The notes under the pieces: generated by a model | The model's input: the letters and a program-made list of their open reading frames with translations, nothing else | The model's database searches: none | What the model was told of the DNA's origin: nothing | In this document: in pieces, positions 1 to 6,216 of the stretch | Layout: each line of letters opens with the position of its first letter | Position numbering within the stretch: the stretch's first letter is position 1 | From: a virus | IMG/VR virus record: IMGVR_UViG_3300045988_015852 | Length of the DNA stretch: 6,216 nucleotides | Strand: one strand, 5' to 3' | Position numbers and translations under genes: made by a program

Positions 1-77
1 CCGGTTAATACGGCTGCTTATACTCGTATTAAGGAGTATTATGACTTCTACGCTGTGCCGTTACGTTTGATTTCTCG
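1..77. repeat. Terminal redundancy of a circular assembly, identical to 6140..6216
   Basis: Base-by-base comparison: ccggttaatacggctgcttatactcgtattaaggagtattatgacttctacgctgtgccgttacgtttgatttctcg occurs at both ends of the window. Confidence 0.97.
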
Positions 78-1551
78 TGCTCTTCCGCAGGCGTTTACTC
101 AAATGACGGACTATATGACTAGTGCAGCTAGTTCTACCACAAATACGTCTGCTCTTACTTCTGTTCCTAGTGTTACTCAGAGCATTTTTAGTGTGTTTCT
201 TCAGACGGCTAATGCTGGTGACCAGACTAATACCCGTGATGATGCAGGCCTCCCTATTGTCTATGGTTCTTGTAAGCTGCTTGATATGCTTGGCTATGGT
301 TCTGTGATTGATTCTAAAAATACTGGTAAGGCTGCTATTACTAAAAAATATCTAGGTGTTGATACCCTTGGTGACGCTGATAATCCTTTGGTTTATCAGA
401 CTTCGCAGACTGTCAATGCTCTTCCGTTCCTTGCTTATCAGAAGATTTATTATGATTTCTTCAGCAATAACCAATGGGAAAAGCACAAAGCTTACGCCTA
501 TAATGTAGACTATTGGTCCGGAACTGGTAATATTGGATTGGTTACTGATATGATTCAGTTGCGCTATGCGAATTATCCTAAGGACTATTTCATGGGTATG
601 CTTCCTAATTCTCAATATGGTTCGGTAGCTCTCCTTCCATCTAATTATCGTTCTGATGTCCCTTCTAATTCATTGTTAAAGCCGGATCAAAAGTTAATAG
701 TTCAGTCTCAAAGTACTGGCAATGCTGTTGTGTTAGGTGATTCTTCTACTTCTGTTGAATATATTCGTCTTAATTCTAATTTATCTGCTCTCTCAATCCG
801 TGCCACAGAATATCTCCAGCGTTGGAAAGAAGTAGTCCAGTTTAGTAGTAAGGACTATTCAGACCAAATGGCTGCTCAATTCGGTATTAAAGCCCCCGAG
901 TACATGGGCAATCATGCACATTATATTGGTGGTTGGTCCAGTGTTATCAACATTAATGAGGTAGTTAATACTAATCTTGATTCTGATTCTTCTCAGGCTT
1001 CTATTGCTGGTAAAGGTGTATCCAGTAATTCCGGATATACTATTACTTATGACTGTGGCGCTGAACATCAGGTGATTATGTGCGTATATCACGCTGTACC
1101 TATGCTGGATTGGAATCTGACCGGCCAAAATCCTCAACTGACCGTGACTGCTATCTCTGACTTCCCGCAACCTGCATTTGACCAGCTTGGTATGCAGGCT
1201 GTTCCTGCTCTTAATCTTCAGAATAACCCCGGCCGTAAGGCTTCCGGTTCTCTTGGTTATAACCTCCGTTATTGGCAATGGAAATCTAATATTGATACCG
1301 TTCACGCTGGATTCCGTGCTGGTGCTGCTTATCAGTCTTGGGCTGCTCCTCTTGATGGCTGGCAAGTTTTGACTTCCGCTGGTGTTTGGTCTTACCAGTC
1401 TATGAAAGTTCGTCCTCAACAGTTGAATTCTATATTCGTTCCTCAAGTTGATGCTTCTAACTGCTCTGTCGCATTTGACCAGTTATTGTGTAATGTTAAT
1501 TTCCAAGTATATGCCGTACAGAACTTGGATAGAAATGGTTTACCTTATTAA
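1..1551 (+). CDS. VP1: Microviridae major capsid protein (VP1 / F family), C-terminal 516 codons plus stop. The 5' part is at 5963..6216 across the circular junction, giving 575 aa in total.
   Basis: The frame is open from base 1 (PVNTAAYTRIKEYYDFYAVPLRLISR...) and is the same frame as the ATG at 5963 once the 6139-nt circle is closed (55+6139=6194, same phase as 5963). The track start at 55 is an internal GTG, not the true start. The combined N-terminus carries motifs I recall from microvirus capsid proteins (RSSFDLS..., FTAKVGEILP, FTRTVPVNTAAYTRIKEYYDFYAVPLRL). Third codon positions are T-rich. It is the longest + strand ORF apart from Rep. Confidence 0.93.
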   Translation, partial: PVNTAAYTRIKEYYDFYAVPLRLISRALPQAFTQMTDYMTSAASSTTNTSALTSVPSVTQSIFSVFLQTANAGDQTNTRDDAGLPIVYGSCKLLDMLGYGSVIDSKNTGKAAITKKYLGVDTLGDADNPLVYQTSQTVNALPFLAYQKIYYDFFSNNQWEKHKAYAYNVDYWSGTGNIGLVTDMIQLRYANYPKDYFMGMLPNSQYGSVALLPSNYRSDVPSNSLLKPDQKLIVQSQSTGNAVVLGDSSTSVEYIRLNSNLSALSIRATEYLQRWKEVVQFSSKDYSDQMAAQFGIKAPEYMGNHAHYIGGWSSVININEVVNTNLDSDSSQASIAGKGVSSNSGYTITYDCGAEHQVIMCVYHAVPMLDWNLTGQNPQLTVTAISDFPQPAFDQLGMQAVPALNLQNNPGRKASGSLGYNLRYWQWKSNIDTVHAGFRAGAAYQSWAAPLDGWQVLTSAGVWSYQSMKVRPQQLNSIFVPQVDASNCSVAFDQLLCNVNFQVYAVQNLDRNGLPY

Positions 1552-1562
1552 TTTGTATTGTT

Positions 1563-2003
1563 ATGAGAAATTTTGCTTATAAAAATCCCGATTATATTAA
1601 AAATGAGGTTGTTCCCGAGTTAATTGAGGATAATCCGTGTTATCAACAGTCTGTATATGATACAGTTATGTATGACGAATCTCTTGATGGTGACTTGATT
1701 CAATGTGATATGACGCAGATTTTGCTGAATCAGGAAAAATATCGCCGGTTACTCGGTGATATGAATGTTCAGAATATTCTTGCTCAAATGCACCCTACTC
1801 AGTCTACTTTCATGGATGGTATGACTGATGAAGAACGTTTTGATTGTGTTATCTCCCGTCATTGTCAGACTATGTCTGAACGTCAGGCTGTTTTACAGCA
1901 GTTGGCTAGTGAGAAGTCTGAACTATCGGCTTATGCCGAATCTATGTTGGCAGAGCAAAAGGCAGCGCCGTCTCCGGATTCCGCATCTGCCTCTCCTGAA
2001 TAA
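1563..2003 (+). CDS. Hypothetical acidic 146-aa protein. Its position between VP1 and VP2 is compatible with a scaffolding-like role, but this is unproven.
   Basis: The ATG lies 11 nt after the VP1 stop. The stop TAA (2001..2003) shares one base with the VP2 ATG (TAATG). Codon style matches the other genes (gct, gtt, tct, gat, tat). The protein is rich in D/E/Q with an Ala/Ser/Pro tail. I recognise no motif. Confidence 0.75.
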   Translation: MRNFAYKNPDYIKNEVVPELIEDNPCYQQSVYDTVMYDESLDGDLIQCDMTQILLNQEKYRRLLGDMNVQNILAQMHPTQSTFMDGMTDEERFDCVISRHCQTMSERQAVLQQLASEKSELSAYAESMLAEQKAAPSPDSASASPE

Positions 2004-3145
2004 TGGGACTATTTGATGCTATAGCTTCCTCGGCTGCAAACCTTACCGACAATGTTGTCGGTATGGTTAATCAGAATCATCAGAATAAGGTTAATCTCCG
2101 TATGATGCGTGAACAGAACGCATTTAACGCAGAGCAGGCTCAGATTCAACGTGATTGGCAGCAACAGATGTGGGGCATGAATAATGCCTACAATTCTCCT
2201 GACGCTATGATTTCTCGTGGTTTGAATCCGTTTGTTCAAGGTTCTGCTGCTATGGCTGGTTCTAGGTCTCCTGCTTCAGGTGGAGCTGCTGCTACTGCTG
2301 CTCCTGTTCCTAGTATGCAGGCCTATAAGCCTAATTTCTCTAGCGTGTTCCAGTCTCTTGCTTCCCTTGCTCAAGCTAAGGCTTCTGAGGCTTCTGCTGG
2401 TGAATCAGGCTCTCGTGCACGTCAGACTGATACGGTAACTCCTCTTTTGTCTGATTATTATAGAGGTCTTACTAACTGGAAGAATCTAGCTATTGGCTCT
2501 TCCGGTTATTGGAATAAGGATACGGGCCGTATATCTGCTGCTTTGGACCAGTCTACTGAGGCTCAGAATTTAAAAAACGCCCAGTTTGCTGAACGTATAT
2601 CTGCTGCTCAAGAAACACAGATTTTGCTTAATTCTGATGCTCAACGTATTATGAATAAATATATGGATCAGAATCAACAGGCTGATTTGTTTATTAAGGC
2701 TCAAACCTTAGTCAATCTTCAGTCCCAAGGTGCTCTTACTGAGAATCAGATGCAGACTGAAATTCAGCGTGCTATTCTTATTGCTGCTGAGGCTTCCGGT
2801 AAGAAAATTGACAATCGTATAGCTTCCGAGACGGCTGATTCTTTGATTAAGGCAGCTAACGCCTCTAATGAATTGCAATATCGTGATAGTACGTATGATT
2901 ATAAGAATGTTAAGCTTCGTAAACATACGGAGTATAAAACTTCTATGGCTAATCAGAAAGCTGCTGAATATGGCGCAGACTTGGCTCGCAAACAAAGCCG
3001 TACTCATTATTGGGAATCTGTTGCTCGTGGTGTTGGTAGTATTGCCTCCGGTGCTGGTAATTTTGTCGGCGCGTTTCGTCCAGGTGCTAATATCTATCGT
3101 AATGATTATGGCCCTCGTAATACTACTATTTATAATGGTCGGTAA
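2003..3145 (+). CDS. VP2: Microviridae minor capsid / DNA pilot protein (VP2; functional analogue of phiX174 H)
   Basis: The N-terminal block REQNAFNAEQAQIQRDWQQQMWGMNNAYNSPDAMISRGLNP (nt about 2108..2230) resembles the conserved VP2 motif of non-phiX microviruses (...N.EF...M.NTAYQR...D...AGLNP). It is followed by an Ala/Ser/Gly-rich low-complexity stretch and a long Q/A/N-rich, probably helical region. It sits directly after the capsid module. Confidence 0.85.
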   Translation: MGLFDAIASSAANLTDNVVGMVNQNHQNKVNLRMMREQNAFNAEQAQIQRDWQQQMWGMNNAYNSPDAMISRGLNPFVQGSAAMAGSRSPASGGAAATAAPVPSMQAYKPNFSSVFQSLASLAQAKASEASAGESGSRARQTDTVTPLLSDYYRGLTNWKNLAIGSSGYWNKDTGRISAALDQSTEAQNLKNAQFAERISAAQETQILLNSDAQRIMNKYMDQNQQADLFIKAQTLVNLQSQGALTENQMQTEIQRAILIAAEASGKKIDNRIASETADSLIKAANASNELQYRDSTYDYKNVKLRKHTEYKTSMANQKAAEYGADLARKQSRTHYWESVARGVGSIASGAGNFVGAFRPGANIYRNDYGPRNTTIYNGR

Positions 3146-3164
3146 ACATTCTTCAGGACTAGAA

Positions 3165-3211
3165 GCCCATCGCGGCGTTTGAGCGATATACACCCGCCGC
3201 CCGCGTAGGGC
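3165..3211 (+). other. GC-rich imperfect hairpin (ssDNA or RNA), function unknown
   Basis: gccc(3165-3168) pairs with gggc(3208-3211). cgcgg(3171-3175) pairs with ccgcg(3201-3205). The two stems are separated by a 2x2 at/ta internal loop. An alternative 6-bp pairing is gcggcg(3172-3177) with cgccgc(3195-3200). Confidence 0.55.
3187..3195 (+). repeat. First copy of the 9-mer TATACACCC, repeated at 3316..3324 and as TATACACTC at 3328..3336
   Basis: Exact 9-mer seen twice in the non-coding region, plus a third copy with one substitution. Confidence 0.6.
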
Positions 3212-3224
3212 CTGATCGAAATAT

Positions 3225-3270
3225 GGAGCGGAGCGACTTCCTTATAGGAGCGTTCCGCTCCGGTATTTTA
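3225..3270 (+). terminator. Candidate intrinsic terminator: 11-bp GC-rich stem followed by GGTATTTTA
   Basis: ggagcggagcg(3225-3235) pairs with cgttccgctcc(3251-3261): 10 Watson-Crick pairs plus one G-T wobble, with a 15-nt loop. It is followed by ggtatttta. It lies about 80 nt downstream of the last gene of the long + strand gene string (VP2). The T-tract is short and interrupted, so the terminator call is tentative. Confidence 0.35.
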
Positions 3271-3287
3271 GCACGTAGGTGCGCAAA

Positions 3288-3310
3288 GGCAAGACAGTTT
3301 CTGCCTTGCC
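3288..3310 (+). other. Stem-loop: 10-bp stem with one A-C mismatch and a TTTC tetraloop
   Basis: ggcaagacag(3288-3297), loop tttc, ctgccttgcc(3301-3310). Nine of ten positions are complementary. Confidence 0.6.
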
Positions 3311-3337
3311 GTGCCTATACACCCCTGTATACACTCA
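3310..3337 (+). repeat. Tandem TATACAC(C/T)C repeats that also form a 28-bp 11-6-11 imperfect palindrome (recombinase-core or iteron-like)
   Basis: cgtgccTATAC-acccct-GTATAcactca. The inner 5 bp of each arm are perfectly inverted and 7 of 11 arm positions are complementary, with a 6-nt spacer. Read as direct repeats: TATACACCC (3316-3324) and TATACACTC (3328-3336), 12 nt apart. Confidence 0.5.
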
Positions 3338-3360
3338 CTTGTCAATTAAGCGAAGCCCCT

Positions 3361-3429
3361 AGTTGTGTGCGAAAGCAAATTCGAGTTATCCTCTCGAATT
3401 CTCCATCTCTTGTCCATAAACGCACAACT
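3361..3429 (+). other. Nested structure: a long-range stem enclosing a perfect 8-bp hairpin
   Basis: Outer stem: agttg(tg)tgcg (3361-3371) pairs with cgcacaact (3421-3429), 9 bp with a 2-nt bulge. Inner hairpin: aattcgag(3378-3385), 7-nt loop ttatcct, ctcgaatt(3393-3400). A competing local gc-GAAA-gc tetraloop lies at 3369-3376. Confidence 0.55.
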
Positions 3430-3467
3430 CACACTCTATGGTAGAATCTAAAAAAAAACGGTTTTCT

Positions 3468-3498
3468 TTTGGTTTAATAAAAATAGTTTGTATATTTG
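3468..3498 (+). promoter_or_regulatory. Bacteroides-type promoter: -33 TTTG (3468-3471) and -7 TAtaTTTG (3491-3498)
   Basis: Exact match to the Bacteroides consensus TAnnTTTG, with a TTTG 19 nt upstream. It sits at the 3' end of the only large non-coding region, about 50 nt before the ATG at 3549. The leader is AT-rich with no Shine-Dalgarno sequence. The predicted transcription start is near 3503-3506. Confidence 0.5.
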
Positions 3499-3548
3499 CC
3501 CCCAGTTAGAAGTTACAACTATTATTAACATCTTAAAATCTTACAATT

Positions 3549-3743
3549 ATGCAGAAATTTATTATTTCAGTCAAAGAAAAAACTACTGGCCGTGATGTTA
3601 TTTCGCCTTATATCGTTAATTCTCTCGATGGTCTTGGAAATTATTCTGAGCGAGTTTCTTCGCTGGGTCTTATTGTTATTGTGGATTCAATTAAAGAAGA
3701 AAATAATTTTGTTGAACTTAAAACTCAAAGCGATGAAAAGTAA
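3549..3743 (+). CDS. Hypothetical 64-aa protein, orphan accessory ORF
   Basis: First ORF after the candidate promoter. Third codon positions are strongly T-biased, as in the core genes, and this supports it over the overlapping 3592 frame. It ends in a double stop (taa taa). There is no TM segment and no motif I recognise. Confidence 0.6.
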   Translation: MQKFIISVKEKTTGRDVISPYIVNSLDGLGNYSERVSSLGLIVIVDSIKEENNFVELKTQSDEK

Positions 3744-3816
3744 TAATATTTGGAAAATTATTATCGGTGCTGTTTCTGCCGCATTAGGCTATATTCTTAA
3801 TGCTATCGGACTATGA
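3733..3816 (+). CDS. Candidate 27-aa single-pass membrane micro-protein (MKSNNIWKIIIGAVSAALGYILNAIGL), a possible holin-like partner of the downstream peptidase
   Basis: The ATG at 3733 overlaps the end of the 64-aa ORF by 11 nt. Its TGA overlaps the ATG of the M15 gene (ATGA at 3813-3816). It exactly fills what would otherwise be a 69-nt gap in a genome whose other intergenic gaps are -1 to 18 nt. Codons are genome-typical (ggt gct gtt tct gcc). It has a short polar N-terminus followed by about 22 hydrophobic residues. It is very short, so it remains unproven. Confidence 0.4.
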   Translation: MKSNNIWKIIIGAVSAALGYILNAIGL

Positions 3817-4121
3817 ATTATACTCTTATGCATTTCCTTGAGTATCTGCTCTACTCTAATGTTCATTTTTCGGTGACTAGTGCTAGACGTACTCCTGAAC
3901 AGAATAAAGCTGCTGGAGGTGTTCCGAATTCCCAACATCTTGTAGGCGAGGCTGTTGATATCAAACCTTATGGTTCTACTACGTTTAATAATTTGCTCGA
4001 AGCGATTCATTTTTTCTCTGATAATGTTTCGCCATTTGACCAGCTTATTATATATCCGACATTTATTCATGTTTCATTCTGCTCTCGTAATCGTCGGCAG
4101 GTGATAGACAAACGTAAATAA
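3813..4121 (+). CDS. Peptidase M15 family (M15_3 / VanY-like) zinc peptidoglycan peptidase, a putative endolysin of 102 aa
   Basis: VTSARRTPEQNKAAGGVPNSQHLVGEAVDI contains the family signature SxHxxGxAxD (SQHLVGEAVD). The putative Zn ligands are H42 (nt 3936-3938), D49 (3957-3959) and H86 in FIHVS (4068-4070). The preceding S-x-R-R-T-P-x-x-N-x-x-x-G-G block matches the S-G-Y-R-x-P-x-x-N-x-x-x-G-G pattern of this family as I recall it. No signal peptide or TM segment is present. Confidence 0.85.
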   Translation: MNYTLMHFLEYLLYSNVHFSVTSARRTPEQNKAAGGVPNSQHLVGEAVDIKPYGSTTFNNLLEAIHFFSDNVSPFDQLIIYPTFIHVSFCSRNRRQVIDKRK

Positions 4122-4123
4122 TT

Positions 4124-5944
4124 ATGAAATTTTCTCCTGAGTTACTGAAAGCGACTGCCTGTTGCCAGCATCGTTCGTTTATTACTAATCGTTACAACGG
4201 TGCACGTATTGCCGTGGATTGTGGCCAATGCGATTATTGTATCCATAAGCGTGCTCAGAAAGCGTCCATGCGTGTGAAGACCGCTGGAAGTGCCTTTAAG
4301 TATTCTTATTTTGTAACTCTTACGTATGACAACGAACATATTCCTCTTATGAATTGTAAGGTTCTCCACAGTGAATATGAGGACGTTGTAGGTATCTCAG
4401 GAGATATTCATTTTGGTGATGAATATCATAAATATATCCCTGTTTCCGAGTATCGATGTGATGATAACTCCATGCTGCGTCATATTTTCTTCGAACAGGT
4501 TCAAGGCACTGTGCCGTATGACCGTGAAATTAAGGAATATGTACCTGTTAAAGATAATTGGTTTCTTAGTATGGATGCTATTCGTAGTTTTATCTATAAA
4601 ACGCAGTCCGTGGAGAATACGGTATATCCCGCTGCTGAACAATACGGTCTTGGTAACCTTATTCCCTTTTTAAATTATGTTGATGTTCAGAATTATATCA
4701 AACGTTTACGTAAACATTTGTTTCAAAAATTAGGCTCTTATGAAACGTTACATTTCTACGCTGTGGGTGAGTACGGACCCGTGCATTTCCGCCCGCATTA
4801 TCATCTCTTATTATTCACAAACTCGGAAGAAGTCTCCGAGGTTTTACGATACTGTCACGATAAGAGTTGGAGGCTCGGTCGTTCAGATTTCCAACGTGCC
4901 GCTGGTGGAGCTGGTTCGTACGTTGCGAGTTACGTTAACAGCTTGTGCTCTGCTCCCCTCTTATATCGCTCATGCCACGCGTTTAAGCCCAGGTCGCGAG
5001 CATCTGTCGGATTCTTTGAGAAAGGCTGCGATTTCGTGGAAAACGATGATCCTTATGCGCAAATTGAACAAAAAATCGATTCTGTCGTTAACGGACGAGT
5101 CTATAACTTCAATGGTATCAGTGTTCGGTCAACTCCGCCCCTGTCGTATATCCGTACCTTACTCCCCCGATTCTCGTCTGCTCGCAATGACGATGTTGTT
5201 GCGATTGCTCGAATTCTTTGCGCTGTACATTCAACGCCAAAGAGAATTGCGAGATTCGGATTTGTTGACTACAAACAGGATTCAATCTTGAGTCTTGTCC
5301 GCACTTATTATCAATATCTTAAGGCCAATTCTATTCTTACTGATGATGACAAGATTATATTACATGCTTCTCGGTGTCTTACTAGGTTTGTTAACTGTTC
5401 TAGTGATGTCGATATTGAATCTTATATTAATAAGCTATATCGGCTGTTCTTATATGTCTATAAGTTCTTCCGGAATTGGCATTTGCCTCTCTTCGGCTCT
5501 GATATTAGTGCTTACTCCGGTCGTATTATGTTTATCATTAAAACAGGTATAGAATATGAGAAGAAAACGGATTATGTACGAATGTGTGATTCGTTGCGAA
5601 TACAACAGACTTTGCCAGCCCCTATGCTTCGGTATTTCTATTTACCAGCCGAAGGATGCGAAATGGCAACCATTGGTATCGGTGAGGACGGAGAATATGC
5701 AGACGGATTTATTCGTCCCGTTAAAGAACAAATACGAGTTCCGTTTGATGACCCCAGAATCCCACCTCTCGCGTCTTGTAATTACATCAAATCTGCGAAG
5801 CCCGATACAAGAAGTGCCTATGATAGTGGGCAAAGTAGCGACTTACAAAAATGTCTTGATTTCCGTGCTGCTACCTTCTGTCGTGATATGATTAAGCATA
5901 AGAAGCTTAATGATGCTAATAATATTTTCAACCGTATGGTTTAA
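4124..5944 (+). CDS. VP4: Rolling-circle replication initiator, HUH endonuclease (VP4; phiX174 gpA family)
   Basis: Motif 1 is FVTLTY (aa 63-68). The HUH motif is H-Y-H-LLLF (aa 225-227, nt 4796-4804). The two-tyrosine motif YVASYVNS (Y266/Y270, nt 4919-4933) is nearly identical to phiX174 gpA YVAKYVNK. The N-terminal cysteine cluster CGQCDYC is typical of microvirus Rep proteins. Confidence 0.95.
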   Translation: MKFSPELLKATACCQHRSFITNRYNGARIAVDCGQCDYCIHKRAQKASMRVKTAGSAFKYSYFVTLTYDNEHIPLMNCKVLHSEYEDVVGISGDIHFGDEYHKYIPVSEYRCDDNSMLRHIFFEQVQGTVPYDREIKEYVPVKDNWFLSMDAIRSFIYKTQSVENTVYPAAEQYGLGNLIPFLNYVDVQNYIKRLRKHLFQKLGSYETLHFYAVGEYGPVHFRPHYHLLLFTNSEEVSEVLRYCHDKSWRLGRSDFQRAAGGAGSYVASYVNSLCSAPLLYRSCHAFKPRSRASVGFFEKGCDFVENDDPYAQIEQKIDSVVNGRVYNFNGISVRSTPPLSYIRTLLPRFSSARNDDVVAIARILCAVHSTPKRIARFGFVDYKQDSILSLVRTYYQYLKANSILTDDDKIILHASRCLTRFVNCSSDVDIESYINKLYRLFLYVYKFFRNWHLPLFGSDISAYSGRIMFIIKTGIEYEKKTDYVRMCDSLRIQQTLPAPMLRYFYLPAEGCEMATIGIGEDGEYADGFIRPVKEQIRVPFDDPRIPPLASCNYIKSAKPDTRSAYDSGQSSDLQKCLDFRAATFCRDMIKHKKLNDANNIFNRMV

Positions 5945-5962
5945 TTTAAATATTAATTAATT

Positions 5963-6216
5963 ATGAGTGATTTTAATCCTTTGGACCGTGCTAAGATTCC
6001 TACCCATCGGTCTTCTTTCGACTTAAGTTCGAAAAAATTGTTTACAGCTAAAGTAGGTGAAATTCTTCCTTGCTATTGGCAGATTGCTATTCCCGATACG
6101 AAGTATCGTATTTCCTCTGACTGGTTTACCCGTACTGTTCCGGTTAATACGGCTGCTTATACTCGTATTAAGGAGTATTATGACTTCTACGCTGTGCCGT
6201 TACGTTTGATTTCTCG
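5963..6216 (+). CDS. VP1: Major capsid protein VP1, N-terminal part, running off the window end and continuing at 1..1551
   Basis: The ATG at 5963 lies 18 nt after the Rep stop. Translation: MSDFNPLDRAKIPTHRSSFDLSSKKLFTAKVGEILPCYWQIAIPDTKYRISSDWFTRTVPVNTAAYTRIKEYYDFYAVPLRLIS. The last 77 nt duplicate 1..77. Confidence 0.93.
   Translation, partial: MSDFNPLDRAKIPTHRSSFDLSSKKLFTAKVGEILPCYWQIAIPDTKYRISSDWFTRTVPVNTAAYTRIKEYYDFYAVPLRLIS
6140..6216. repeat. Terminal redundancy of a circular assembly, identical to 1..77
   Basis: Exact 77-nt identity with the window start. Confidence 0.97.

What the first reader, a model, noticed from the sequence alone, without database searches (positions are those of the whole stretch)
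3150..3445. GC-rich, densely self-complementary non-coding island in an otherwise compact, T-rich microvirus genome
The only large non-coding stretch in the genome is 3146..3548 (403 nt). Its first roughly 290 nt differ sharply from everything else. By hand count, 3161-3440 has 144/280 G+C (about 51%) and 3161-3320 has 91/160 (about 57%). Spot counts on coding lines gave about 28-45%. The genome-wide third-position T bias also disappears here. The region packs at least four stem-loops (3165-3211, 3225-3261, 3288-3310, and 3361-3429 enclosing a perfect 8-bp hairpin at 3378-3400), plus repeated GAAGCCC (3162-3168, 3352-3358) and TATACAC motifs. In characterised ssDNA phages, structured intergenic DNA serves as the complementary-strand origin: the PriA/n' hairpin in the phiX174 F-G spacer, primase-recognised stem-loops in G4, and RNAP-recognised hairpins in Ff phages. 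No such element has been defined for Bacteroidota-type microviruses as far as I know. Alternative or additional roles are termination of a genome-length transcript, a structured ncRNA made from the + strand, or a host-derived attP-like segment. I cannot assign it to any RNA family from memory.
Basis: partly seen in the sequence, partly recalled or inferred. Interest (0 to 1): 0.7.

Follow-up and report, generated by a model that had tools for sequence, protein, structure and literature searches.

The report
Conserved folded-DNA replication-origin region in gut microvirus
The one long non-coding stretch of this small single-stranded-DNA gut phage is a real, strongly conserved set of DNA hairpins, whose 93-base core is shared by distant relatives (including a cultured Bacteroides phage) and most likely tells the host where to start copying the incoming viral strand.

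Summary
Positions 3146-3548 are the only large non-coding gap, 3161-3320 is the GC maximum of the genome, and the region folds far better than shuffles (z about -4 to -4.8). The 73-aa ORF is not coding: it is intact in 4 of 116 homologues.

The region is composite.
1. 3150-3335 is a clade-specific 5' domain of short hairpins supported by covariation. One of them (3247-3261 plus a T-run) looks like the late-operon terminator. Some close relatives lack the whole domain.
2. 3346-3438 is a fixed-size (92-95 nt) three-way junction with strong covariation. A covariance model finds it on the gene strand, in the same gap, in microviruses whose Rep is only 26-41% identical, including Bacteroides fragilis phage phiHBP1.
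3. 3450-3498 holds an A-tract and the only Bacteroidota-type promoter in the genome.

Three results point to structure in the viral ssDNA rather than in RNA. G-T/G-U pairs are almost absent (27 of 3,279 cells). The small hairpin is C-GNA-G or C-GNNA-G in 88 of 97 variants, the "extraordinarily stable DNA mini-hairpin" known from the G4 priming site and RSF1010 ssiA. The core also lies after terminators and before the promoter.

Best reading is a complementary-strand (single-strand initiation) origin. This is inferred, not shown. There are no Rfam, plasmid or bacterial-genome matches.

The parts
3150..3335 (+). 5' accessory domain: GC-rich, clade-specific cluster of short hairpins and invariant blocks
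   Evidence: Present in all 34 GenBank records whose Rep is at least 61% identical and in about 130 IMG/VR contigs. Mean identity is 0.83 in the 12-genome set chosen independently of the element, against 0.48-0.76 for the four large genes. Absent from L251, L272, L260 and L265, whose Rep is 73-77% identical to the window's.
3169..3187 (+). Hairpin ATCGC / GCGAT with a 9-nt loop
   Evidence: Pair 3172-3184 covaries: GC 109, AT 14, CG 5. The helix is 100% paired in A2.
3185..3214 (+). Most conserved 30-mer of the genome, GATATACACCCGCCGCCCGCGTAGGGCCTG. It holds TATACACCC copy 1 and two short crossing or alternative helices, 3195-3197/3203-3205 and 3199-3202/3208-3211.
   Evidence: Identity 0.989 in the 12-genome set. 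Covarying pairs are 3195-3205 (CG 49, UA 4, GC 3), 3200-3210 (CG 53, GC 3) and 3202-3208 (CG 53, UA 3). A hairpin followed by TATACACC also lies about 150 nt upstream of the core in distant clades.
3225..3237 (+). Invariant GGAGCGGAGCGAC. It repeats the 5' arm of the terminator hairpin; GAGCG occurs four times (3181, 3226, 3231, 3248).
   Evidence: Nearly every column of the block is invariant in A1 and A2; only the middle purine (3231) varies between G and A. The block is kept even in relatives that lack the complementary CGCTCC arm. Its role is unexplained.
3247..3271 (+). Intrinsic-terminator-like hairpin GGAGCG-TTC-CGCTCC followed by GGTATTTTAG
   Evidence: First + strand entry in the terminator-like site list of the window scan. 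Pair 3248-3260 covaries: GC 78, AT 46. A hairpin plus T-run lies upstream of the core in 80 of 98 family members, mostly this hairpin. Relatives without the 5' domain carry a classic terminator at this place.
3271..3282 (+). Hairpin GCAC-GTAG-GTGC (GCAC-GGA-GTGC in many relatives)
   Evidence: Pair 3273-3280 covaries: AT 101, GC 29. The helix is 100% paired.
3283..3314 (+). Long hairpin GCA..GGCAAGACAG-TTT-CTGCCTTGCC..TGC
   Evidence: Inverted repeat I6. Alternative stems keep the pairing: GGCAGGT/ACCTGCC, GGGAG/CTCCC and GACAAG/CTTGTC. Basal pairs are 97.9% paired.
3316..3333 (+). TATACACCC copy 2 (3316-3324) and TATACAC copy 3 (3327-3333)
   Evidence: Direct repeat D4. CTATAC(A)CCCC also follows a hairpin in the L291-L294/L300 clade.
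3346..3438 (+). 3' core domain, a 93-nt three-way junction. In order: GCGAAGCC (3350-3357); closing helix 3361-3367/3423-3429; mini-hairpin GCGAAAGC (3369-3376); hairpin 3378-3385/3393-3400 with loop TTATCCT; unpaired CT-rich strand ending CTTGTCCATAAACG (3409-3422); then TCACAC (3429-3434).
   Evidence: Length is 92-95 nt in all clades. On the MAFFT alignment A3, 94.4% of cells pair against 79.1% shuffled, 13 of 18 pairs change on both sides, and the covariation score is 0.418 against 0.138 (0/500). On the model-fitted alignment of 98 distinct sequences, 98.4% pair and 16 of 18 pairs change on both sides. Model R1 hits the + strand of the VP2-Rep gap in mar56, mar63, Dulem 244/256/257/263, bajarodmic 410/576, MT837631 and Bacteroides phage phiHBP1.
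3450..3458 (+). A9 tract between the core and the promoter
   Evidence: A run of at least 6 A lies within 40 nt downstream of the core in 82 of 98 members. It sits roughly 45-55 nt upstream of the inferred transcription start, so an UP-element-like role is inferred only.
3468..3498 (+). Bacteroidota-type promoter TTTG-N19-TATATTTG for the early operon (small ORF, peptidase, Rep)
   Evidence: The only match to TTTG-N17-23-TAnnTTTG in the window on either strand; 0.22 expected, and 38 of 200 shuffles have at least one. The same motif lies downstream of the core in 57 of 98 relatives and upstream in 3 of 98. The consensus is taken from my own knowledge of Bacteroides promoters.

Best explanation
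The region is a non-coding control region that acts mainly as folded single-stranded DNA of the packaged (+) strand.

Its universal core, the 93-nt three-way junction at 3346-3438, is most likely the complementary-strand origin, that is, a single-strand initiation signal. After injection the hairpins form. These include a C-GNA-G mini-hairpin of the kind that binds SSB poorly. They keep this spot free of single-strand-binding protein. They also present the invariant unpaired blocks (CTTGTCYATAAACG, TCACAC, GCGAAGCC) to the host priming machinery. That machinery could be primase acting directly as in G4, a PriA-type primosome, or RNA polymerase. A primer is made and the host converts the circle to the double-stranded replicative form.

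Only then can the adjacent promoter (3468-3498) fire.

The GC-rich 5' domain (3150-3335) is an accessory, clade-specific module. It contains the intrinsic terminator of the genome-length transcript (3247-3271). It also has further hairpin-plus-TATACACC units that may be auxiliary initiation or protein-binding sites.

Shown here: the structure, its strand, its conservation, its non-coding nature, and the positions of the terminator-like and promoter-like motifs. Inferred: that it acts as DNA, and that the activity is priming.
For: 1. It is real and under selection.
- Folding z is -4 to -4.8.
- The non-coding element is more conserved (0.83 and 0.87) than the four large genes, MCP, VP2, peptidase and Rep (0.48-0.76). 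This is in the 12 GenBank genomes that equal the set retrieved by Rep similarity. Only the 64-aa small ORF (0.84) is comparable.
- Covariation is strong in the core and in the 5' helices.

2. It is not coding. The ORF is intact in 4 of 116 homologues, indel lengths are uniform modulo 3, and there is no codon periodicity.

3. The core persists across deep divergence.
- R1 hits in genomes with Rep 26-41% identical, always on the gene strand and always in the VP2-to-early-gene gap. These include the cultured B. fragilis phage phiHBP1.
- The helices are fully compensated, for example GUUGUGUG/CGCACAAC becoming AUUUCUAU/GUAGAAAU and GAGUUUGC/GCAAACUC.
- Sequence motifs kept while phage proteins diverge fit recognition by a conserved host factor.

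4. DNA rather than RNA.
- Only 9 of 1,744 and 18 of 1,535 helix cells are G-T/G-U, although 260 and 60 cells carry double changes.
- Hairpin H1 is C-GNA-G in 77 and C-GNNA-G in 11 of 97 unique variants. The window has GCGAAAGC; relatives have GCGAAGC and CCGAAGG.
- These are the extraordinarily stable DNA mini-hairpins. d(GCGAAAGC) lies at the site where primase starts the primer on G4 ssDNA, and CCGAAGG lies in RSF1010 ssiA. They bind SSB poorly, and r(GCGAAAGC) melts at only 39 C (PMC13037366).
- Such motifs reach 2.9 per kb on the + strand of these gaps, 0.40 per kb on the - strand, and 0.21-0.36 per kb in the rest of the genomes.

5. Position.
- A terminator-like hairpin precedes the core in 80 of 98 members. 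In relatives lacking the 5' domain, a classic terminator directly precedes the core.
- The promoter follows the core.
- No promoter motif precedes it: 3 of 98.

6. Precedent.
- Conversion of ssDNA to dsDNA starts at ssi/sso signals that use only host enzymes (PMC5714925).
- Conserved gap hairpins with compensatory changes in other microvirus clades were tentatively read the same way (PMC9865509).
Against: - No experiment or read data show a primer start.
- Both strands fold equally well under DNA parameters. The strand call therefore rests on loop motifs, on the + strand-only model hits and on the unpaired conserved blocks.
- GNRA-like loops are also good RNA motifs.
- In the window itself, 3146-3261 lies upstream of the terminator and is probably transcribed as a 3' UTR.
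- Terminators can leak, so the core could be present in RNA too.
- The invariant unpaired CTTGTCYATAAAC loosely resembles the CTTG/ATA nick site of phiX174 and pC194 (my own knowledge). A Rep (+) origin in the same element is therefore not excluded.
- The promoter consensus alone is weak statistically in one genome (38 of 200 shuffles have a match).
- Most family members were retrieved with motifs from the element itself, so their conservation values are biased. Only the 12-genome figures are free of this.
- The benchmark that natural RNA helices carry several per cent G-U is from my own knowledge and was not computed here.
Confidence: 0.5

Rival explanations
1. The core is, or also contains, the viral-strand (+) origin. 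In this reading the phage HUH Rep protein binds the junction and nicks in an invariant unpaired block (CTTGTCYATAAAC, the hairpin loop GTTATCC, or TATACACC). That nick starts and ends rolling-circle synthesis. Both origins could sit side by side, as in the Ff phage intergenic region.
For: Invariant unpaired sequences sit next to covarying stems. This is the usual look of HUH origins (my own knowledge of CRESS viruses and pT181-type plasmids).

CTTG followed by an A/T-rich stretch recalls the phiX174/pC194 nick motif CTTG|ATA (my own knowledge).

The motif is duplicated: TCACTTGTCAATTAA at 3335 and TCTCTTGTCCATAAA at 3406.

No other convincing candidate was found. The only CTTGATA is at 280-286, at chance level. 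The very conserved AACTTGGATAG at 1522 is not kept in relatives.
Against: The same unpaired motifs persist in phages whose Rep is only 26-41% identical. That fits a host factor at least as well as a co-evolving Rep.

The T of CTTG varies, with CTCG in many members.

The 5' domain cannot be the (+) origin. Genomes with Rep 73-75% identical lack it, while genomes with Rep 61-62% identical have it.

In phiX174 the origin lies inside gene A, not in a structured gap (my own knowledge).

No nicking data exist.
Confidence: 0.2
2. The element works as RNA. It could be a structured 3' UTR or read-through product of the late transcript that ends and stabilises the mRNA. It could also be a new structured non-coding RNA acting on the phage or the host.
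For: The structure is on the mRNA-sense strand. In the window it begins 5 nt after the VP2 stop codon, so at least 3146-3261 should be transcribed. It contains a terminator-like hairpin. It also folds significantly as RNA, with z -4.0. The window's H1 is a GAAA tetraloop.
Against: - No Rfam match at E up to 1 in the window, and none at gathering score in six relatives.
- G-U pairs are almost absent: 27 of 3,279 cells.
- The dominant H1 loop is the GAA triloop closed by C-G. That is a DNA-stability motif and not a notably stable RNA one (PMC13037366).
- In many relatives a terminator precedes the 5' domain (Dulem 226/243/238/241) or directly precedes the core (L251, L272, L260).
- No promoter motif lies upstream of it.
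- It was not seen outside microvirus-sized contigs, apart from CRISPR spacers.
Confidence: 0.15
3. The region is a host-derived or dif-like attachment site. Host XerC/D recombinases would use it to integrate the phage, as proposed for Bacteroidales microvirus prophages, perhaps as a folded ssDNA site like CTX-phi.
For: Alpavirinae proviruses are flanked by dif-like sites and encode no integrase, and their gene order puts the junction in this same gap (PMC3091885).
Against: - There is no match to the bacterial dif core consensus at up to 3 mismatches anywhere in the window (the consensus is from memory).
- None of the first 120 exact 17-mer hits in 185,579 species genomes is a real copy.
- The metagenome and IMG/VR contigs checked are about 6 kb, are circular concatemers, or (L382, L284) are CRISPR arrays with matching spacers; none was found embedded in a host chromosome.
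- A 28-bp recombination site would not explain 300 nt of covarying hairpins.
Confidence: 0.04

Closest known systems
Primase-dependent complementary-strand origin of phages G4, St-1 and alpha3 (oric)
   Same: A non-coding gap of a microvirus. Several stable hairpins in the viral strand. A GCGAAAGC-type mini-hairpin, the very octamer found in the window at 3369-3376, lies at the G4 priming site (PMC13037366). Host enzymes only.
   Different: No sequence homology was tested or is evident. Here the core is a three-way junction with a 23-nt unpaired strand, not three tandem hairpins. The host is Bacteroidota, whose primase specificity is unknown. No priming has been shown.
Single-strand initiation signals ssiA/ssiB of RSF1010, and the sso elements (ssoA and others) of rolling-circle plasmids
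   Same: Orientation-dependent, highly structured non-coding DNA of about 100-300 nt with conserved unpaired motifs, used to prime the lagging strand (PMC5714925). ssiA carries a CCGAAGG mini-hairpin, and CCGAAGG is the second commonest H1 variant here.
   Different: ssiA is recognised by a plasmid primase (RepB'), and ssoA by RNA polymerase through the RSB and CS-6 motifs. No CS-6 (TAGCGT/A) is visible in 3146-3548. The recognising enzyme here is unknown.
Intergenic region of Ff phages (f1/M13)
   Same: One long multi-hairpin non-coding region in an ssDNA phage that gathers replication signals next to transcription signals. This is a useful model if both origins are co-located here.
   Different: A different phage family with no sequence or structural homology. 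The Ff minus origin mimics a sigma-70 promoter. No Bacteroidota promoter mimic was seen in the stems here.
Conserved gap hairpins of reekeekee- and roodoodoo-microviruses (PMC9865509)
   Same: Microvirus gap hairpins with identical loops and compensatory stem changes, tentatively assigned to minus-strand initiation.
   Different: Those are single hairpins of 13-64 nt in unrelated clades. This is a 93-nt junction plus a roughly 190-nt accessory domain, traced across many clades with a covariance model.
phiX174 primosome assembly site (n'/PriA site)
   Same: A hairpin in a gap of the viral strand that recruits host replication-restart proteins. A DNA three-way junction resembles the branched substrates PriA prefers (my own knowledge).
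   Different: The phiX174 site is a roughly 55-nt hairpin. PriA dependence cannot be tested here.

Membership tests
G4-type primase-dependent complementary-strand origin | Lies in a non-coding gap and folds in the packaged (+) strand | tested here: met
   The gap is 3146-3548. Model hits are on the gene strand only. That the packaged strand has mRNA sense is established knowledge for Microviridae.
G4-type primase-dependent complementary-strand origin | Mini-hairpin GCGNNAGC/GCGNAGC at the initiation region | tested here: met
   GCGAAAGC at 3369-3376. 88 of 97 unique family variants are C-GNA-G or C-GNNA-G. The motif definition comes from PMC13037366.
G4-type primase-dependent complementary-strand origin | Sequence or structure homology with the G4/St-1/alpha3 origin | not tested
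   No G4 sequence was fetched. The architecture (a three-way junction) differs from the three tandem hairpins described for G4.
G4-type primase-dependent complementary-strand origin | DnaG makes a unique primer on SSB-coated DNA at this site | not testable with these tools
   Needs biochemistry or primer mapping.
Rolling-circle plasmid ssoA | Conserved RSB and the CS-6 hexamer (TAGCGT/A) in the terminal loop | tested here: not met
   No TAGCGT or TAGCGA in 3146-3548 on reading the sequence. No plasmid similarity.
Any Rfam RNA family | Covariance-model match | tested here: not met
   0 matches at E up to 1 in the window. 0 at gathering score in six relatives. No tRNA or tmRNA.
Protein-coding gene (ORF 3223-3444) | Reading frame kept in homologues, with codon-position bias in substitutions | tested here: not met
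   4 of 116 intact. Length modulo 3 is 38/40/38. Variability by codon position is 0.099/0.101/0.108. No PHROG family.
Intrinsic (rho-independent) terminator | G+C-rich hairpin directly followed by a T-run on the transcribed strand | tested here: met
   3247-3261 followed by GGTATTTTAG. The stem covaries. The T-run has only 4 consecutive T, so strength is uncertain. Termination itself was not measured.
Bacteroidota housekeeping promoter (-33 TTTG / -7 TAnnTTTG) | Both elements at 17-23 nt spacing upstream of an operon | tested here: met
   3468-3498 is the only site in the window. It is conserved in position in 57 of 98 relatives. The consensus is from my own knowledge.
dif-like XerC/D attachment site | 28-bp site with the ATAA-N6-TTATG-type core | tested here: not met
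   No match at up to 3 mismatches. The consensus was recalled from memory and may not fit Bacteroidota, so the result is weak.
phiX174-type Rep (+) origin | CAACTTG|ATA-like nick sequence conserved with the Rep family | tested here: inconclusive
   CTTGATA occurs only at 280-286, at chance level. The element has CTTGTCCATAAAC, a partial resemblance. The 5' domain does not track Rep lineage.

The most novel reading that the evidence does not exclude
The roughly 300-nt element, or its 93-nt junction, is a new class of structured non-coding RNA made by gut microviruses from the end of, or read-through beyond, the late transcript. It would act on the host or on host defence rather than in DNA replication. 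One odd hint fits this: in some relatives the tail of the core (CTCACACCCTACGG) matches 12-13 nt of the repeat of a type I-C CRISPR array that carries spacers against this very element.
Probability: 0.08. Interest if true: 0.8.

Novelty: new variant of a known kind. Interest (0 to 1): 0.55.

Why it matters
Bacteroidota-infecting microviruses (Alpavirinae-like) are among the most abundant ssDNA phages of the human and animal gut. Nothing is known about how their injected strand becomes double-stranded, or about which host factors they depend on.

This analysis yields a defined 93-nt motif supported by covariation. It comes with a working covariance model, and it is present in a cultured Bacteroides fragilis phage, phiHBP1. 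That makes the question directly testable through deletion and compensatory mutants, primer mapping and ssi-rescue assays.

The element is also practically useful:
- It is a marker for annotating these genomes. Several GenBank records place hypothetical CDSs over it.
- It helps to orient and rotate microvirus contigs.
- It is a part that synthetic microvirus vectors for Bacteroides would need.

If the DNA mini-hairpin reading is right, the link between GNA mini-hairpins and priming sites extends from enterobacterial phages and plasmids to a different bacterial phylum.

Tried and rejected
- **Known RNA families.** Rfam at a permissive threshold and ARAGORN found nothing.
- **Coding reading of ORF 3223-3444.** Rejected.
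- **Bacterial genomes.** An exact 17-mer scan of 185,579 species genomes gave 120 hits across many phyla, but none matches the element profile. About 140 chance hits are expected for 17 bases in 596 Gb, so this says little beyond "not common in chromosomes".
- **Plasmids.** No match.
- **Protein-seeded search for mar56 relatives in IMG/VR.** Nothing found.
- **RNAalifold/MFE stems 3165-3168/3208-3211, 3171-3175/3201-3205 and the long 3225-3261 stem.** Replaced by the helices that covary.
- **Mini-helix 3411-3413/3420-3422.** Not kept in outgroups, so left out of the model.
- **(+) origin at the most conserved coding 30-mer, AACTTGGATAG at 1522.** Rejected because it is absent from close and distant relatives.
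- **5' domain as (+) origin.** Rejected because its presence does not follow Rep lineage.
- **dif-like site.** Not found.
- **Thermodynamic strand test.** Uninformative; both strands give z about -4.7 to -4.8.
- **Conservation profile over all 139 members.** Biased by motif-based retrieval, so it was recomputed on the 12-genome set.
- **phiHBP1 gap before the capsid gene.** Holds an unrelated hairpin. The homologous core lies instead at L288 3899-3996, just upstream of Rep.
Full report
**1. What the window is**

The window is a complete circular microvirus genome with a 77-nt terminal redundancy, so the true length is 6,139 nt. All genes are on the + strand:
- major capsid protein, ending at 1551 and wrapping the ends of the window;
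- a 146-aa protein (1563-2003);
- the DNA pilot protein VP2 (2003-3145);
- a 64-aa ORF (3549-3743);
- a peptidase (3813-4121);
- the replication initiator Rep (4124-5944).

This layout, with a peptidase between VP2 and Rep, is that of Bacteroidota-associated Alpavirinae-type microviruses (PMC3394797; PMC3091885). The only long gap is 3146-3548.

**2.

No non-overlapping 160-nt window of the genome is as G+C-rich as 3161-3320. At 200-nt resolution two coding windows reach the same 0.505.

The listed inverted and direct repeats are present.

The gap folds much better than dinucleotide shuffles. For 3146-3548, z is -4.0 as RNA and -4.5 as DNA. For 3150-3445 as DNA, z is -4.8 on the + strand and -4.7 on the - strand. 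The two strands therefore cannot be told apart by energy.

**3. It is not a gene and not a known RNA**

The 73-aa ORF 3223-3444 keeps an intact frame in only 4 of 116 distinct homologous sequences. Segment lengths are spread evenly over the three residues modulo 3. Variability is the same at all three codon positions. It has no PHROG match.

Rfam gives no match at E up to 1 in the window, and none at gathering score in six relatives. ARAGORN finds nothing.

**4. Relatives**

blastn against GenBank phages finds the gap in 34 records: Dulem viruses from lemurs, two dog-faeces microviruses and one human isolate. These are exactly the records whose Rep is at least 61% identical to the window's.

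Motif scans of IMG/VR and of metagenomes add well over 200 further contigs. Those examined are about 6 kb, fragments, or circular concatemers, and many come from human gut samples; two non-microvirus exceptions are the CRISPR loci of section 11.

A 17-mer scan of 185,579 bacterial and archaeal species genomes returned only chance hits. None matches an nhmmer profile of the element. There is no plasmid match.

In the 12 GenBank species-level representatives, which were not chosen through the element, identity to the window is:

| Region | Identity |
|---|---|
| 3150-3335 (5' domain) | 0.83 |
| 3346-3438 (3' core) | 0.87 |
| Capsid | 0.75 |
| Rep | 0.76 |
| VP2 | 0.48 |

The single most conserved 30-mer of the genome is 3185-3214, at 0.989.

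**5. Anatomy: three parts**

(a) *The 5' domain, 3150-3335.*

Mutual information and pair counts support these helices:
- 3169-3173/3183-3187;
- 3195-3197/3203-3205 and 3199-3202/3208-3211, which cross each other or alternate;
- 3247-3252/3256-3261;
- 3271-3274/3279-3282;
- the long hairpin 3283-3314.

Overall, 98.2% of cells are paired and 8 pairs change on both sides. The covariation score is 0.137, against 0.064 for shuffles (0/500) and at most 0.047 for slid controls.

The outer 3165-3168/3208-3211 pairing and the long 3225-3261 stem predicted by energy are not the ones that covary.

Hairpin 3247-3261 followed by GGTATTTTAG heads the + strand terminator-like sites listed for the genome.

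(b) *The 3' core, 3346-3438.*

It measures 92-95 nt from GCGAAGCC to TCACAC in every clade. It forms a three-way junction made of:
- the closing helix 3361-3367/3423-3429;
- the mini-hairpin H1 (3368-3377);
- hairpin H2 (3378-3400), with a nearly invariant loop GTTATCC;
- an unpaired CT-rich strand ending in CTTGTCYATAAACG.

On a plain MAFFT alignment of 38 diverse sequences, 94.4% of cells pair against 79.1% in shuffles. 13 of 18 pairs change on both sides. The covariation score is 0.418, against 0.138 for shuffles (0/500) and at most 0.098 for slid controls. On 98 distinct model-aligned sequences the figures are 98.4% paired, 16 of 18 pairs and a score of 0.438 (this alignment leans towards the model).

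(c) *3450-3548.*

This part holds an A9 tract and then TTTG-N19-TATATTTG (3468-3498). That is the only full match in the window to the Bacteroidota promoter pattern. The early operon starts 50 nt downstream.

Among 98 family members:
- the promoter pattern lies downstream of the core in 57 and upstream in 3;
- an A-run follows the core in 82;
- a hairpin plus T-run precedes the core in 80.

**6. The parts are separable**

L251, L272, L260 and L265 lack the 5' domain. In the first three, a textbook terminator follows VP2 and the core comes next. L246 keeps only the terminator hairpin.

Their Rep proteins are 73-77% identical to the window's. That is as close as relatives that have the 5' domain, and closer than Dulem 226/241 (61-62%), which also have it.

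The 5' domain is therefore dispensable and does not travel with Rep. It is unlikely to be the Rep origin.

In the Dulem 226/243/238/241 group a terminator-like hairpin with a T-run lies between VP2 and the 5' domain.

**7. The core is old**

Microvirus mar56 (Rep 41% identical) and mar63 (30%) have the same junction, with almost every closing-helix pair replaced by a compensating pair. So does the IMG/VR clade L291-L294/L300 (Rep 27-31%).

A covariance model of the core (R1) hits the following, all on the gene strand and all between VP2 and the early genes:
- Dulem 257 (E = 2.5e-13) and bajarodmic 410 (2e-12);
- the cultured Bacteroides fragilis phage phiHBP1 (5e-7; 6e-8 with filters off);
- Dulem 256 and Dulem 244, MT837631, bajarodmic 576 and Dulem 263.

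It hits none of 11 Bacteroidales genome loci used as controls.

A hairpin followed by TATACACC, as at 3169-3195 and 3283-3324, also recurs upstream of the core in distant clades.

**8. DNA or RNA?**

Three results favour DNA.

- *Wobble pairs are nearly absent.* They make up 9 of 1,744 cells in the core and 18 of 1,535 in the 5' helices, although hundreds of cells carry double changes. From my own knowledge, natural RNA helices usually carry several per cent G-U. I could not compute a calibrated control.
- *H1 is a DNA-type mini-hairpin.* It is C-GNA-G in 77 and C-GNNA-G in 11 of 97 unique variants. The window has GCGAAAGC, and the commonest relatives have GCGAAGC and CCGAAGG. These are the "extraordinarily stable mini-hairpin DNA" sequences. 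According to PMC13037366:
  - GCGAAAGC lies where primase makes the primer on G4 ssDNA, and St-1 and alpha3 have GCGTTAGC there.
  - CCGAAGG lies in RSF1010 ssiA, and GCGGAGC-type hairpins occur in N4 single-strand promoters.
  - Such hairpins bind SSB poorly.
  - r(GCGAAAGC) melts at only 39 C, much lower than the DNA form.
  - In the family studied here, such motifs reach 2.9 per kb on the + strand of these gaps, against 0.40 on the - strand and 0.21-0.36 elsewhere. H1 itself supplies about 60% of them.
- *The core sits after terminators and before the promoter, with no promoter motif upstream*.

None of these is proof. Terminators leak, and in the window 3146-3261 is probably part of a 3' UTR.

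**9. Most likely function**

Every microvirus must have its injected (+) strand converted to the replicative form by host enzymes at an ssi/sso signal (PMC5714925; PMC9865509). The core has the expected properties:
- strand-specific structure in the packaged strand;
- an SSB-resistant mini-hairpin of the type found at known priming sites;
- invariant unpaired blocks kept while phage proteins diverge to about 26% identity, which suggests a conserved host partner;
- universal presence in the family.

I therefore read 3346-3438 as the complementary-strand origin, with confidence about 0.5. The enzyme could be primase acting directly, a PriA-type primosome on the branched DNA, or RNA polymerase. 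I cannot tell which.

The 5' domain is read as an accessory module. It provides the late terminator and perhaps auxiliary initiation sites. Its invariant 30-mer and the GGAGCGGAGCGAC block remain unexplained.

**10. Rivals**

- *A Rep (+) origin in the core.* It remains possible, and both origins could be adjacent as in Ff phages. CTTGTCYATAAAC loosely recalls the CTTG|ATA nick motif (my own knowledge), and the motif is duplicated at 3335 and 3406.
- *An RNA role.* Disfavoured by section 8 but not excluded.
- *A dif-like attachment site.* Not supported.

**11. By-product**

One metagenome hit (L382, 11.5 kb) is not a phage. It is a type I-C CRISPR locus next to hydEFG, with Cas7/Csd2, Cas4 and Cas1c. 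It has 25 repeats and 24 spacers.

At least nine distinct spacers match this microvirus clade. Two of them lie inside the 3' core. This gives a handle on a natural host. It also shows that the core is conserved enough to be a recurrent CRISPR target.

**12. Novelty**

The kind of element, a structured minus-strand origin of an ssDNA phage, is known. This particular family is not in Rfam, and I found no paper on it. I rate it a new variant of a known kind, of moderate to good interest. The main reason is that a cultured phage now makes it testable.

Noticed in passing
L382 4382-5975 (metagenome contig ERZ1504592 NODE_296); also L284: This is a type I-C CRISPR locus (Cas7/Csd2, Cas4, Cas1c upstream; hydEFG downstream) with 25 repeats GTCACACCCTACGTGGGTGTGTGGATTGAAAC and 24 spacers. 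At least nine distinct spacers match this microvirus clade. Two lie inside the 3' core: AAGCGAAGCCCCTAGTTGTGTCCGAAGGAAAA and AATGCGAACGCAAAACTGAGTTATCCTCTCAG. L284, filed in IMG/VR as viral, carries the same spacers 16-24 and so is the same locus. The host taxon was not determined.
   Followed up: partly
window 3429-3441 versus the L382 repeat: The tail of the core in some relatives (CTCACACCCTACGG) shares 12-13 nt with the 5' end of that CRISPR repeat (GTCACACCCTACG). The window itself has CTCACACTCTATGG. This is probably chance, since TCACA is conserved family-wide, but it is unexplained.
   Followed up: no
window 1-77 and 6140-6216: A 77-nt terminal redundancy: the window is a circular genome of 6,139 nt written with an overlap. 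The capsid gene runs across the ends.
   Followed up: yes
window 2800-3100 and 5600-5850: The C-terminal third of VP2 and a stretch near the Rep C-terminus align in only 28-54% of 139 relatives, while their flanks align in nearly all. These are hypervariable or recombining segments that abut the conserved gap.
   Followed up: no
L004 3352-3678; L302 3581-3784; L288 3584-3994; L003 3618-3914: GenBank records annotate hypothetical CDSs over the conserved non-coding element or its core. Given the lack of frame conservation, these ORF calls are probably spurious at least in part.
   Followed up: partly
window 3478-3488 / 3517-3527: An 11-nt inverted repeat brackets the promoter -7 element. Dulem 242-type relatives have a different but also complementary pair there (AAAATAATG / CATTATTTT), so this hairpin may be selected too.
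   Followed up: no
window 3335-3349 and 3406-3420: A direct repeat, TCACTTGTCAATTAA / TCTCTTGTCCATAAA. The CTTGTC-AT-AA motif occurs once just before the core and once in its unpaired strand.
   Followed up: no
L287 3480-3800 (Microvirus mar56): The 593-nt gap of mar56 holds several pairs of direct repeats: TTCCCCACAGCGCAGC x2, GGAGTACGGAA x2, CCGCAGGTGT x2 and AGCGTAGCG x2. CACAGCGCAGC also occurs in mar63. Their meaning is unknown.
   Followed up: no
L007 and L010, 3305-3470 (Dulem 254/255): A roughly 160-nt insertion with a 50-aa annotated ORF lies between VP2 and the element, compared with Dulem 237/239.
   Followed up: no
L130 3295-5021 (Bacteroidetes MAG OY969813.1): The 17-mer GATATACACCCGCYGCC occurs four times at exactly 570-nt spacing, which implies a tandem repeat. 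The locus has no similarity to the element profile.
   Followed up: no
window 1522-1551: The last 30 nt of the capsid gene (AACTTGGATAGAAATGGTTTACCTTATTAA) are the second most conserved 30-mer of the genome (0.96), well above the gene average of 0.75. The motif is not kept in relatives outside the close clade.
   Followed up: partly
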